Shown one piece after another: positions 1 to 1,832 of a stretch of 1,832 nucleotides of DNA. The DNA comes from Naegleria gruberi (lineage: Eukaryota): the NCBI GenBank assembly GCA_000004985.1, contig GG739320.1. One strand, 5' to 3'. Numbering within the stretch: position 1 is the stretch's first letter; every line of letters begins with the position of its first letter. The translations under genes were made by a program, and so were the position numbers. The notes below the pieces were generated by a model, which worked only from the letters and a program-made list of their open reading frames with translations, did not search any database and had not been told where the DNA came from.

Positions 1-343
1 CTTCCCAAGCATAAGGACGTTGGTATTCAGGAATAGAATAGCACAATTCAAAAAGATTGTCAATTGCTCTATTGTTGGTGGTCAACTCACAAGCTCTTCT
101 TTCAGAGGCAACTATCTTTGGTCTTGGAGGAACAGGTGGACTGAATGTGAGTGGAGAATCTGTTGAAAATGGAAGAGAGGTATCACTCTTAGAGCTTGAT
201 GGAGTTGCTGGTTGTGAAGAAGTGGAAGGAGTACTGGCAATAATGGTTTGTTCCTTCTTGGTCTTCTTCTTGTCTTTCTTTGGGGTAATGTCAGAGCTTG
301 TCTCTGGTGTTTTTCTCTTCTTGTCTTTCTTTTCAGCAGGCAT
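1..343 (-). CDS. 5' end (first 114 codons) of a protein gene that continues beyond the window start. Residues 1-75 form a Lys/Ser/Thr/Pro-rich basic tail with NLS-like motifs. Residues 76-114 open a DUF262 / GmrSD-N-like (ParB-fold) domain with the motif IPEYQRPYAW.
   Basis: My own reverse-complement translation from ATG 343..341 gives MPAEKKDKKRKTPETSSDITPKKDKKKTKKEQTIIASTPSTSSQPATPSSSKSDTSLPFSTDSPLTFSPPVPPRPKIVASERRACELTTNNRAIDNLFELCYSIPEYQRPYAWE. The frame is open from position 1 to an upstream in-frame stop at 383..385, and 343 is the first in-frame ATG. The plus strand here is strongly T/G-skewed, i.e. the minus strand is A/C-rich Lys/Glu/Thr codons. No CTG codons are present, so the translation holds under either the standard code or the CTG-clade code. 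The domain call rests on recalled similarity to the DUF262 N-terminal consensus (F-x-IP-x-[YF]-QR-x-Y-x-W). Confidence 0.7.
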   Translation of the reverse strand, partial: MPAEKKDKKRKTPETSSDITPKKDKKKTKKEQTIIASTPSTSSQPATPSSSKSDTSLPFSTDSPLTFSPPVPPRPKIVASERRACELTTNNRAIDNLFELCYSIPEYQRPYAWE

Positions 344-733
344 GGAGATGTCTTGCAATGATTTTTTTGATTTTGAAAAGTGTTAAACAACCATTATGAT
401 TGAAGTTTAAAAGATGTGATGTACCCATCAAAAATACTTTTAAGTTTACAACAAGACAACTCGTCAAGAAAAACCATCACAGCAAAAAAATGGTTGACCA
501 GTATTTAATAACGTTTGCTTGAACCAATTGGTCATGGTAGTTCCAAAAAAAGTGTGAATTTCGCCTTTATTTTTATCTTTAAAATTTTAGGTGGGTAATC
601 ATTACTGATTATCTTGATACAATCTTGATGTAATTAAACATAATTTTTACCATATAAACTAGATGTTATTTAGTACCTGTTATGTTAATAGTGTGTATTA
701 AAAAACAAAAATGAAATAAAGAGAAACAAAAGC
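344..733 (-). promoter_or_regulatory. Pol II promoter / 5' intergenic region of the DUF262-like gene. Contains poly(dA:dT) tracts, a palindromic double CCAAT site (ACCAATTGGT, 523..532) flanked by a TGACCA/TGGTCA inverted pair, GATA-type repeats (607..630) and TATA-like A/T blocks (566..585, 643..648).
   Basis: A7 tracts at 482..488 and 545..551. The 10-bp perfect palindrome accaattggt presents CCAAT on both strands about 180 bp upstream of the ATG. TGACCA at 495..500 pairs with TGGTCA at 528..533. ATCTTGAT is directly repeated at 611..618 and 622..629, carrying GATA/GATAA cores. These are motif-level observations only. Confidence 0.3.
701..731 (-). terminator. RNA polymerase III terminator: oligo-T runs immediately downstream of the tRNA 3' end.
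   Basis: Minus-strand sequence after the discriminator reads GC TTTT G TTT CTC TTT A TTT CA TTTTT G TTTTT. There is a T4 two nt past the tRNA end, then two T5 runs (plus 707..711 and 701..705). Confidence 0.7.
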
Positions 734-814
734 TGCAGAAGGTGGGATTTGAACCCACGAAGCTTGCGCAGTAGAACTTGAGTCTACCCCCTTTGACCAC
801 TCGGGAACCCCTGC
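734..814 (-). tRNA. tRNA-Leu (anticodon CAA), class II with a long variable arm, intronless, no encoded CCA.
   Basis: The minus-strand sequence GCAGGGG TT CCC GAGTGGTCAAA GGG G GTAGA CTCAAGT TCTAC TGCGCAAGCTTC GTGGG TTCAAAT CCCAC CTTCTGC A folds as a cloverleaf. Acceptor stem is 7 bp (two G-U pairs), D stem 3 bp, anticodon stem 5 bp perfect with a 7-nt loop carrying CAA at 780..778 and G37, T stem 5 bp with T loop TTCAAAT, and a 12-nt variable arm containing a GC-GCAA-GC mini-hairpin. Discriminator A. Confidence 0.93.
745..755 (-). promoter_or_regulatory. Pol III internal promoter B box (GGTTCAAATCC) of the tRNA-Leu gene. The A box (TTCCCGAGTGG) lies at about 797..807.
   Basis: Matches the eukaryotic B-box consensus GGTTCGANTCC and the A-box consensus TRGCNNAGTGG, at the canonical positions within the tRNA. 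Confidence 0.8.
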
Positions 815-1083: not shown

Positions 1084-1206
1084 TGCCTTCACCAAATTCA
1101 CAACAATAAATTGTGGTTTGCTCTCATTTTCCATTATCTTGTGAATAATCACTTGAATTGTTGTAAAGAAAACCAAGCAAGGTGCTAAGAGAGTTTGGTG
1201 AAGGCA
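1084..1206. repeat. 13-bp perfect inverted repeat (TGCCTTCACCAAA at 1084..1096, TTTGGTGAAGGCA at 1194..1206) bracketing a 97-bp AT-rich spacer. Possible MITE-like or foldback element, or a structured RNA/DNA hairpin.
   Basis: Exact reverse-complement match read directly from the sequence. It extends to 15 bp with one mismatch. A chance 13-bp perfect IR within 100 bp is improbable in 1.8 kb. Confidence 0.55.
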
Positions 1207-1497: not shown

Positions 1498-1572
1498 CTG
1501 AAAATAGTGAAATTCAATATTTTCACTAAAATCATCATTACCAGATTCATATAATAATTGAATTAGTGAAAT
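1498..1572 (-). other. 3'-UTR stem-loop (8-bp stem TAGTGAAA/TTTCACTA, 8-nt loop, 1505..1528) built from the 8-mer TAGTGAAA, which occurs three times: 1505..1512 (+), 1521..1528 (inverted), and 1564..1571 (+) overlapping the stop codon.
   Basis: Read directly from the sequence. The hairpin lies 35-58 nt downstream of the TAA of the 1563..1832 gene in its transcript sense. A/T-rich context (TATATG, ATTATTA) is consistent with a yeast 3'-end formation region. Confidence 0.4.
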
Positions 1573-1832
1573 CTCGGATTTCCATACCTTTCAAAGGCTA
1601 CCTTCACAGCAACAACCTTTCCTTTATCTAACTTGTACAAACAAGGATAAATTCCATCTCCAATTGCAGTAGAAGAGTAAACACCAAATGGAAACATGGT
1701 GCAATCATCATTTTGGTTTTCAGCCATGATTTGCAGAATTGCATCCTTCCACTCTAAACTTTCTTGATTGGTATTCTTGAACAAATTATTATCTTCATAC
1801 TTGTCTCCATCAATGAATCCAATTCCATGATC
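1563..1832 (-). CDS. 3' end (89 codons plus TAA stop at 1565..1563) of a protein gene whose 5' part lies beyond the window end. Hypothetical protein of unidentified family.
   Basis: The minus frame is open from the window edge: DHGIGFIDGDKYEDNNLFKNTNQESLEWKDAILQIMAENQNDDCTMFPFGVYSSTAIGDGIYPCLYKLDKGKVVAVKVAFERYGNPRFH*. The supplied 73-aa ORF begins at a TTG (plus CAA at 1782..1784) shown as M, and the true frame continues upstream. Composition looks protein-like and non-repetitive. Confidence 0.6.
   Translation of the reverse strand, partial: DHGIGFIDGDKYEDNNLFKNTNQESLEWKDAILQIMAENQNDDCTMFPFGVYSSTAIGDGIYPCLYKLDKGKVVAVKVAFERYGNPRFH

What the first reader, a model, noticed from the sequence alone, without database searches (positions are those of the whole stretch)
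1..343. Yeast nuclear gene whose first structured domain reads like a prokaryotic DUF262 / GmrSD-N defence-nuclease module
After a ~75-aa eukaryote-style basic tail, the protein continues ...RAIDNLFELCYSIPEYQRPYAWE. This spacing and sequence are what I recall as the N-terminal signature of the DUF262 (Pfam PF03235, GmrSD_N; ParB/sulfiredoxin-fold NTPase) domain: a hydrophobic residue, then IP-x-[YF]-QR-x-Y-x-W. That domain is characteristic of bacterial type IV restriction / anti-phage systems (GmrSD, BrxU, SspE) and is normally followed about 30-60 residues later by a DGQQR motif, often with a C-terminal DUF1524 His-Me nuclease. Finding such a module in an AT-rich yeast chromosome, fused to an NLS-bearing tail and with yeast-like codon composition, would suggest either a domesticated horizontal acquisition or an undescribed eukaryotic use of a DNA-modification-sensing nuclease. 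Possible roles are genome defence or recognition of modified bases. The remaining domains are outside the window.
Basis: partly seen in the sequence, partly recalled or inferred. Interest (0 to 1): 0.85.

Follow-up and report, generated by a model that had tools for sequence, protein, structure and literature searches.

The report
Yeast-like gene starting a DUF262 domain
The cut-off start of a gene from an AT-rich, yeast-like chromosome ends in an 11-residue motif that in bacteria almost always opens the NTP-binding domain of GmrSD-type anti-phage nucleases, but the rest of the gene lies outside the window, so the domain is likely and not proven.

Summary
On the minus strand an ORF starts at ATG 343, with an in-frame stop 13 codons upstream. 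It runs off the left edge after 114 codons and ends ...RAIDNLFELCYSIPEYQRPYAWE.

Pfam's only hit is GmrSD_N/DUF262 (E 0.0063, 17.1 bits, profile positions 11-24 of 199). This is below the 33.2-bit threshold because only the first motif lies in the window. All six weak PADLOC hits are DUF262-type models.

Flank-shuffle controls show that the whole signal sits in the 11-mer IPEYQRPYAWE. That 11-mer is highly specific. Of 121 occurrences of EYQRPYAW in prokaryotic genomes, 114 are followed by DGQQR 49-59 residues later, 6 are too truncated to judge and 1 lacks it. Of 27 non-redundant carriers, 27 are GmrSD_N and 24 also carry the GmrSD_C nuclease.

The context looks eukaryotic and yeast-like: a Lys-rich and Ser/Thr/Pro-rich tail, a tRNA-Leu(CAA) gene, and AT-rich spacers.

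I could not recover the rest of the gene or any fungal orthologue. DGQQR, the nuclease domain, bacterial ancestry and function therefore remain untested. DUF262 annotations already exist in eukaryotes (algae, one mushroom).

Verdict: probably a real new eukaryotic member of a known family. Interest is moderate.

The parts
1..343 (-). 5' part of a protein-coding gene: ATG at 343-341 and 114 codons, cut by the left edge of the window
   Evidence: Translation. In-frame stop 13 codons upstream. GC 0.417 against 0.274 in the adjacent spacer.
248..343 (-). Residues 1-32: Lys-rich basic tail with two KKDKK(R/K) clusters, a candidate nuclear localisation signal (inferred)
   Evidence: Sequence. An exact 17-nt direct repeat at 265-281 and 316-332 encodes the two KKDKK clusters. 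No secondary structure in the single-sequence AlphaFold2 model, which has low confidence.
119..247 (-). Residues 33-75: Ser/Thr/Pro-rich low-complexity region, probably disordered
   Evidence: Sequence. Modelled as coil, pLDDT 53-65.
35..118 (-). Residues 76-103: linker and predicted helix (79-102) ahead of the motif
   Evidence: AlphaFold2 helix 79-102. Similarity to bacterial DUF262 flanks is no better than shuffles. The spacing I-x-x-L-F-x-x-x-Y-x-IP does recur in some bacterial DUF262 proteins, e.g. P0005, P0008, P0011.
2..34 (-). Residues 104-114, IPEYQRPYAWE: first conserved motif of the GmrSD_N/DUF262 domain
   Evidence: Pfam PF03235 E 0.0063, 17.1 bits, profile positions 11-24 of 199. 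PADLOC Orf5, HEC-06 and SspE models. The identical 11-mer occurs in bona fide GmrSD_N+GmrSD_C proteins such as L001. 114 of 115 judgeable prokaryotic occurrences of EYQRPYAW are followed by DGQQR.
734..814 (-). Context: tRNA-Leu(CAA) gene, no intron, no encoded CCA, T runs just downstream
   Evidence: ARAGORN. Rfam RF00005, 48.7 bits. Flanking sequence.
1563..1832 (-). Context: last 89 codons and stop of the upstream neighbour gene, with a weak DUF4241-like C-terminus
   Evidence: Translation. Pfam PF14025 E 0.011, profile positions 150-187 of 189.

Best explanation
The minus-strand ORF is the real 5' end of a nuclear gene in an AT-rich, budding-yeast-like eukaryote. Its product begins with about 100 residues that are not part of any recognisable fold: a Lys-rich segment with two KKDKK clusters, then a Ser/Thr/Pro-rich stretch, then a short helix. 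This region probably serves as a disordered nuclear-targeting or DNA-tethering tail (inferred). At residue 104 the protein enters a GmrSD_N (DUF262) domain, the ParB/sulfiredoxin-like NTPase module of GmrSD, BrxU and SspE. The window ends one residue after that domain's first motif.

By analogy with those enzymes, the unseen part should carry a DGQQR NTP-binding loop about 42-52 residues after W113. It most likely also carries a C-terminal GmrSD_C (DUF1524) His-Me nuclease whose DNA cutting is gated by NTP binding or hydrolysis and by recognition of modified DNA.

Shown: the ORF, the motif, its specificity in prokaryotes, and the eukaryote-like context. Inferred: the rest of the domain, the nuclease, nuclear localisation, and any genome-defence or modified-DNA-sensing role.
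For: ORF and motif. GmrSD_N is the only Pfam family hit, at E 0.0063 for a search of all 24,736 models, and it aligns to the start of the profile exactly where the sequence is cut. All six PADLOC hits are DUF262-type models and all align to profile positions 6-36.

The identical IPEYQRPYAWE occurs in a 566-aa metagenomic protein (L001) that scores GmrSD_N 1.8e-36 and GmrSD_C 5.6e-14. A 568-aa (pro)phage protein (L002, GmrSD_N 2.2e-34, GmrSD_C 5.5e-27) carries the 10-mer IPEYQRPYAW followed by G.

Specificity test. The scan took the first 120 stretches of GTDB genomes that match a back-translated EYQRPYAW, giving 121 occurrences. Of these, 114 have DG[QH][QH]R 49-59 residues downstream, 6 are too truncated to judge and 1 lacks it. 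Of 27 non-redundant carriers, 27 are GmrSD_N and 24 also GmrSD_C. They fall in the same PADLOC families as the fragment's weak hits.

Chance expectation of the motif is about 1e-3 per yeast-sized proteome. Mechanism of the family: a DGQQR NTP pocket that regulates a DUF1524 nuclease or nickase in GmrSD, BrxU and SspE (PMC10952713; PMC4619093).
Against: Only 11 residues carry signal. Shuffling the 20 residues before the motif leaves the Pfam score unchanged (13.1-18.0 bits against 17.1 native). The upstream flank is no more similar to bacterial flanks than shuffles are. The score is half of Pfam's gathering threshold.

The specificity test was done on prokaryotes, not on eukaryotic proteomes. 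No orthologue or full-length relative with a yeast-like flank or basic tail was found in 5.8 billion proteins or in 1.84 billion cluster representatives. The family is therefore at best patchy in sequenced yeasts, and nothing confirms that the domain continues.

Three of the 27 prokaryotic carriers lack GmrSD_C. Known DUF262 systems such as Menshen, Dazbog and PD-T4-2 also lack it, so the nuclease is not assured.
Confidence: 0.7

Rival explanations
1. DUF262-only protein. The domain is real but is not coupled to a GmrSD_C nuclease. The yeast protein would then be an NTP-dependent switch or DNA-binding ParB-like module working alone or with a different effector, with no restriction-like activity.
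For: 3 of 27 prokaryotic carriers of the same 8-mer lack GmrSD_C, and 2 carry RecQ-type helicase fusions. Menshen, Dazbog and PD-T4-2 use DUF262 without DUF1524 (PMC10952713). Eukaryotic domestication often keeps only one module (general knowledge).
Against: 24 of 27 (89%) of the proteins with the identical motif have the two-domain GmrSD architecture. The fragment's best PADLOC models (HEC-06, Orf5) are full-length two-domain families.
Confidence: 0.25
2. Chance or convergent motif. The protein is an ordinary fungal protein of another fold, and the 11 residues resemble the DUF262 signature by coincidence.
For: All signal is confined to 11 residues. The Pfam hit is sub-threshold (17.1 against 33.2 bits), and E 0.006 per protein implies tens of such weak hits to some family per proteome. 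No homologue confirms the assignment.
Against: The hit is to the one family the motif defines. The per-family chance is about 3e-7 per ORF, and the expected number of regex matches is about 1e-3 per proteome. The match sits at the profile's start, where a domain cut by the window edge should be. 114 of 115 judgeable genomic occurrences of the 8-mer are true DUF262. No other Pfam family, SNF2_N included, appears at E<=10.
Confidence: 0.1
3. Non-functional relic or artefact: a decaying horizontally acquired fragment, a pseudogene, or a mis-assembled or contaminant junction rather than a working yeast gene.
For: No orthologue was detected anywhere. The neighbour gene also has only a weak hit, to a family I recall as mostly bacterial (DUF4241). 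The motif is letter-for-letter the bacterial consensus.
Against: The reading frame is intact from a bounded ATG through a eukaryote-style tail into the motif, with no break. Third-position GC (0.325) matches the neighbour gene (0.311), and codon choice is yeast-like throughout. The bacterial versions place the motif 21-84 residues from the ORF start in nearly all cases and have no basic tail. A simple contaminant would therefore not look like this.
Confidence: 0.07

Closest known systems
Single-chain GmrSD-like type IV restriction enzymes of bacteria (Pfam GmrSD_N PF03235 + GmrSD_C PF07510; PADLOC models HEC-06 and Orf5), e.g. the L001 and L041 ORFs found here
   Same: Identical first motif IPEYQRPYAWE. 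These are also the HMM families that best match the fragment.
   Different: The bacterial proteins start 21-84 residues before the motif in nearly all cases and have no Lys-rich or Ser/Thr/Pro-rich tail. They sit in prokaryotic genomes. The yeast protein's DGQQR loop and nuclease domain are unseen.
BrxU, Eco94GmrSD and SspE (characterised DUF262+DUF1524 enzymes; PDB 6jiv/7drs for SspE)
   Same: Same domain family. They provide the working model of a DGQQR NTPase that gates a His-Me nuclease or nickase on modified DNA (PMC10952713). An SspE model gives a weak hit to the fragment.
   Different: These are more distant in sequence than the HEC-06 and Orf5 type: SspE matches L001 only at E 0.0017. 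Their substrates (glc-5hmC, 5mC/5hmC, phosphorothioate) have no known counterpart in budding yeast DNA (general knowledge).
Eukaryotic GmrSD/DUF262 homologues already on record (Chlorella variabilis, Coccomyxa subellipsoidea, Thalassiosira oceanica; a Lentinula edodes gene annotated DUF262)
   Same: A prokaryote-type DUF262 module encoded in a eukaryotic genome (PMC4619093; PMC5406856).
   Different: None is from a budding yeast. In the papers I read, none is described with a nuclear-targeting tail and none has a tested function. Their sequences were not compared here.
SNF2-family helicase motif (L-x-x-Y-Q-x-x-G-x-x-W-L), considered as a look-alike from my own knowledge
   Same: A YQ...W spacing after a basic N-terminal tail, common in yeast nuclear proteins.
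   Different: The fragment has P-Y-A-W-E where SNF2 proteins have G-h-x-W-L. No SNF2_N hit appears even at E<=10.

Membership tests
GmrSD_N / DUF262 (Pfam PF03235) | N-terminal motif [IV]-P-x-[YF]-Q-R-x-[YF]-x-W | tested here: met
   Residues 104-113, IPEYQRPYAW. E, Y, Q, R, P, Y, A, W are invariant and I, P nearly invariant in the 27 carriers, but that set was chosen for the 8-mer. Motif variants in 120 further PF03235 proteins follow the same pattern.
GmrSD_N / DUF262 (Pfam PF03235) | Whole-domain HMM score at or above the gathering threshold (33.2 bits) | tested here: inconclusive
   17.1 bits, E 0.0063, covering profile positions 11-24 of 199. The other roughly 175 positions would lie beyond the window edge, so the threshold cannot be reached whatever the truth.
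GmrSD_N / DUF262 (Pfam PF03235) | DGQQR NTP-binding loop (conserved in nearly 100% of members, PMC4619093), 42-52 residues after the motif's W | not testable with these tools
   The sequence ends at residue 114. In prokaryotes, 114 of 115 judgeable carriers of the 8-mer have it. The source contig could not be retrieved.
GmrSD_N / DUF262 (Pfam PF03235) | ParB/sulfiredoxin-like fold | not testable with these tools
   Only the first strand or motif is present. The single-sequence AlphaFold2 model of the fragment has pTM 0.21.
Two-domain GmrSD-type type IV restriction enzyme (GmrSD, BrxU, SspE) | C-terminal GmrSD_C/DUF1524 His-Me finger nuclease | not testable with these tools
   Outside the window. 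Present in 24 of 27 prokaryotic proteins with the same 8-mer.
Two-domain GmrSD-type type IV restriction enzyme (GmrSD, BrxU, SspE) | NTP-stimulated cleavage or nicking of modified DNA | not testable with these tools
   A biochemical property, known only for the bacterial enzymes (PMC10952713).
SNF2-family helicases (look-alike considered) | SNF2_N HMM match or a Y-Q-x-x-G-x-x-W-L motif | tested here: not met
   No SNF2_N hit at E<=10. The sequence reads YQRPYAWE, with no Gly.

The most novel reading that the evidence does not exclude
A budding-yeast lineage has taken up a bacterial GmrSD-type modification-dependent nuclease, added a nuclear-targeting tail, and uses it in the nucleus as an innate barrier against incoming modified DNA (bacterial, viral or plasmid) or as a sensor of aberrant base modification. 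This would be a restriction-like system in a eukaryote whose own DNA is essentially unmodified.
Probability: 0.2. Interest if true: 0.75.

Novelty: new member of a known kind. Interest (0 to 1): 0.4.

Why it matters
Several bacterial anti-phage modules are now known to have eukaryotic descendants that act in immunity. None of the papers I read reports a function for a DUF262/GmrSD-type protein in any eukaryote. A budding yeast would be an easy organism in which to test one.

If the full-length gene proves intact, it offers a tractable case for three questions. Can a modification-dependent nuclease work in a nucleus? What does it guard against? How was it acquired? If the gene is only one more sporadic, uncharacterised DUF262 copy, it adds a data point to an already known scattered eukaryotic distribution.

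Tried and rejected
**Recovering the rest of the gene or orthologues**
- The word-indexed search of 5.8 billion proteins with the 114-aa fragment gave 26 candidates, none at E<=1. The neighbour's 89-aa fragment gave no candidate.
- An exhaustive phmmer of residues 70-114 against 1.84 billion cluster representatives returned only three repeat-protein artefacts.
- Exact-product look-ups of both cut ORFs found nothing on record.
The IMG/VR scan completed and returned only L002, so the window is not in IMG/VR.
- I spent the single genome-contig scan on the motif-specificity test. This was a planning cost: I cannot exclude that the source contig is in those collections.

**The last homology search**
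- I used a synthetic pattern profile: yeast flank, motif, a random 43-residue linker, and a DGQQR block. I validated it by simulation first.
- It found 1650 hits at E<=0.01. All of the best 120 were PF03235 and all were short bacterial or metagenomic fragments. None had a yeast-like flank or a basic tail.
- Its E-values describe the artificial pattern, not homology to the yeast protein.

**Other tests**
- PDB phmmer with the fragment gave no hit at E<=10.
- hhalign of the fragment against the 27-sequence alignment gave 93% probability. I reject this as circular, because the alignment was selected by the motif.
- Flank similarity is not above shuffles.
- Of eight paper searches, three were poorly targeted. 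None found a paper on fungal or yeast DUF262. One fungal annotation turned up in a table.
- NCBIfam gave nothing relevant.

Full report
**What is in the window.** The window is 1832 bases with 34% GC. All three recognisable features lie on the minus strand.
- An ORF starts at ATG 343 and runs off the left edge after 114 codons. An in-frame stop lies 13 codons upstream of the ATG.
- A tRNA-Leu(CAA) gene lies at 734-814. It has no intron and no encoded CCA, and T runs follow it directly.
- The last 89 codons of another ORF end at 1563.

The spacers are 390 and 748 bp long, with 27% and 31% GC. The two coding pieces have 42% and 36% GC and similar third-position GC (0.325 and 0.311). Codon choice (AGA, CCA, TTG, CAA, AAG) is what I know from budding yeasts. 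The tRNA resembles eukaryotic cytoplasmic tRNA-Leu in its T arm and acceptor end, from my own comparison with remembered sequences. 'AT-rich eukaryote, probably a budding yeast' is therefore reasonable but not demonstrated.

**The observation.** The layout needs one refinement. Residues 1-32 are Lys-rich, with KKDKK twice, encoded by an exact 17-nt direct repeat. Residues 33-75 are Ser/Thr/Pro-rich. Residues 76-103 are a linker that a low-confidence single-sequence AlphaFold2 model draws as a helix at 79-102, with everything before it as coil. The motif IPEYQRPYAWE occupies residues 104-114.

**Is it the DUF262 signature?** Against all of Pfam, the fragment's only hit is GmrSD_N (PF03235): E 0.0063, 17.1 bits, residues 96-114 on profile positions 11-24 of 199. 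Against PADLOC, all six hits are DUF262-type models (Orf5, HEC-06, SspE). The best E is 0.0013, and every hit aligns residues 87-114 to profile positions 6-36.

Pattern scans found two bona fide relatives. L001, a 566-aa metagenomic protein, has the identical 11-mer. L002, a 568-aa IMG/VR protein, has the 10-mer IPEYQRPYAW. Both continue to IDGQQR and score as GmrSD_N plus GmrSD_C.

**How much of the fragment carries signal?** Very little beyond the motif.
- The 34 residues upstream are no more similar to bacterial flanks than shuffled versions are (best score 27, against a null of 22.9 +/- 3.4).
- Shuffling the 20 residues before the motif leaves the Pfam score unchanged (13.1-18.0 bits in nine shuffles, against 17.1 native).
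- Some bacterial DUF262 proteins share the yeast spacing I-x-x-L-F-x-x-x-Y-x-IP, for example P0005 RRAIPDLFDKKYYIPEYQRGYRWE. They were ranked by a profile built on the yeast flank, so this shows compatibility, not evidence.

The case rests on eleven residues.

**How specific are those residues?**
- By chance the regex IP.[YF]QR.[YF].W is expected about 9e-4 times per yeast-sized proteome, and the exact 10-mer about 3e-8 times.
- I scanned GTDB genomes for a back-translated EYQRPYAW. Of 121 occurrences, 114 have DG[QH][QH]R 49-59 residues downstream of the E, 6 are too truncated to judge, and 1 (cut by the locus end) lacks it. In nearly all, the motif lies 21-84 residues from the ORF start.
- Of 27 non-redundant carriers, all 27 are GmrSD_N, 24 also carry GmrSD_C, and 2 carry RecQ-type helicase fusions. 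Their PADLOC families are the ones the fragment hits weakly.

In prokaryotes the 8-mer is therefore close to diagnostic.

**What could not be done.** I could not obtain the rest of the gene or any orthologue.
- The 5.8-billion-protein search and the exhaustive search of 1.84 billion representatives found nothing meaningful for the fragment and nothing for the neighbour gene.
- Exact look-ups of the two cut products failed.
I spent the genome scan on the specificity test.
- The last homology search used a synthetic 'pattern' profile (yeast flank, motif, random linker, DGQQR block), tested in simulation. It returned 1650 hits. All of the best 120 were PF03235 and all were short bacterial or metagenomic fragments. 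None had a yeast-like flank or a long basic tail.

The defining DGQQR loop, the fold, the presence of a nuclease, ancestry and function are thus all untested.

**Most likely mechanism.** If the domain continues, as it does in 114 of 115 judgeable prokaryotic cases, the protein is a ParB/Srx-like NTPase. In GmrSD, BrxU and SspE that domain binds or hydrolyses NTPs through the DGQQR pocket and gates a C-terminal His-Me nuclease or nickase acting on modified DNA (PMC4619093; PMC10952713). The added basic tail suggests nuclear import or non-specific DNA tethering. I put about 0.8 on the DUF262 domain being real, about 0.5-0.6 on an attached nuclease, and about 0.2 on an actual defence or modification-sensing role in the yeast.

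**Comparison with what is known, and novelty.** The closest sequences are the single-chain GmrSD-like enzymes of Firmicutes, Actinobacteria, Bacteroidota and other bacteria (HEC-06 and Orf5 models). BrxU, Eco94GmrSD and SspE are the characterised references. Solved relatives of L001 include 9jfl, 20yv/20yw and SspE 6jiv/7drs.

Eukaryotic occurrence is not new. Three algae were listed in 2015 and a shiitake gene is annotated DUF262. In eight full-text searches I found no paper on a yeast member or on the function of any eukaryotic member.

I classify this as a probable new member of a known kind. It is of moderate interest and capped by the fact that only the first motif is visible.

Noticed in passing
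window 1563-1832 (-): The neighbouring ORF's C-terminus (...AIGDGIYPCLYKLDKGKVVAVKVAF...) gives a weak Pfam hit to the very end of DUF4241 (E 0.011, profile positions 150-187 of 189). From memory this family is mostly bacterial. If so, both genes flanking the tRNA have bacterial-type affinities. No homologue was found in the 5.8-billion-protein search.
   Followed up: partly
window 734-814 (-): The tRNA-Leu(CAA) gene has no intron, two G-U pairs in the acceptor stem and a modest Rfam score (48.7 bits). T runs begin 2 nt after its 3' end, as expected for RNA polymerase III termination.
   Followed up: partly
window 265-281 and 316-332: An exact 17-nt direct repeat (TCTTCTTGTCTTTCTTT) lies inside the coding region and encodes the two KKDKK clusters of the basic tail. 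It suggests a small internal duplication.
   Followed up: no
window 57-390, both strands: Two further long ORFs (109 aa on the plus strand at 57-386, 92 aa on the minus strand at 112-390) overlap the real coding frame. They are probably shadows of the low-complexity, stop-poor Lys/Ser/Thr/Pro-coding sequence.
   Followed up: no
window 1084-1099 and 1191-1206: A 16-nt inverted repeat (94% complementary, 91 nt apart) lies in the long spacer upstream of the tRNA gene. Its meaning is unknown.
   Followed up: no
L046:1641-6092 (+), and ORFs in L106 and L118: Some bacterial carriers of the same motif are 1440-1490 aa long. In the 27-member scan, two members combine GmrSD_N with RecQ-type helicase domains (DEAD, Helicase_C, RQC, RecQ_Zn_bind), and one also has HRDC. 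L046 is the longest member scanned. I did not look into this unusual architecture.
   Followed up: no
L067:948-971 and 3645-3668 (+): A Caldilineaceae MAG contig carries two DUF262 genes with the identical motif, 845 and 970 codons long (stop-to-stop ORFs), on the same strand about 2.7 kb apart.
   Followed up: no
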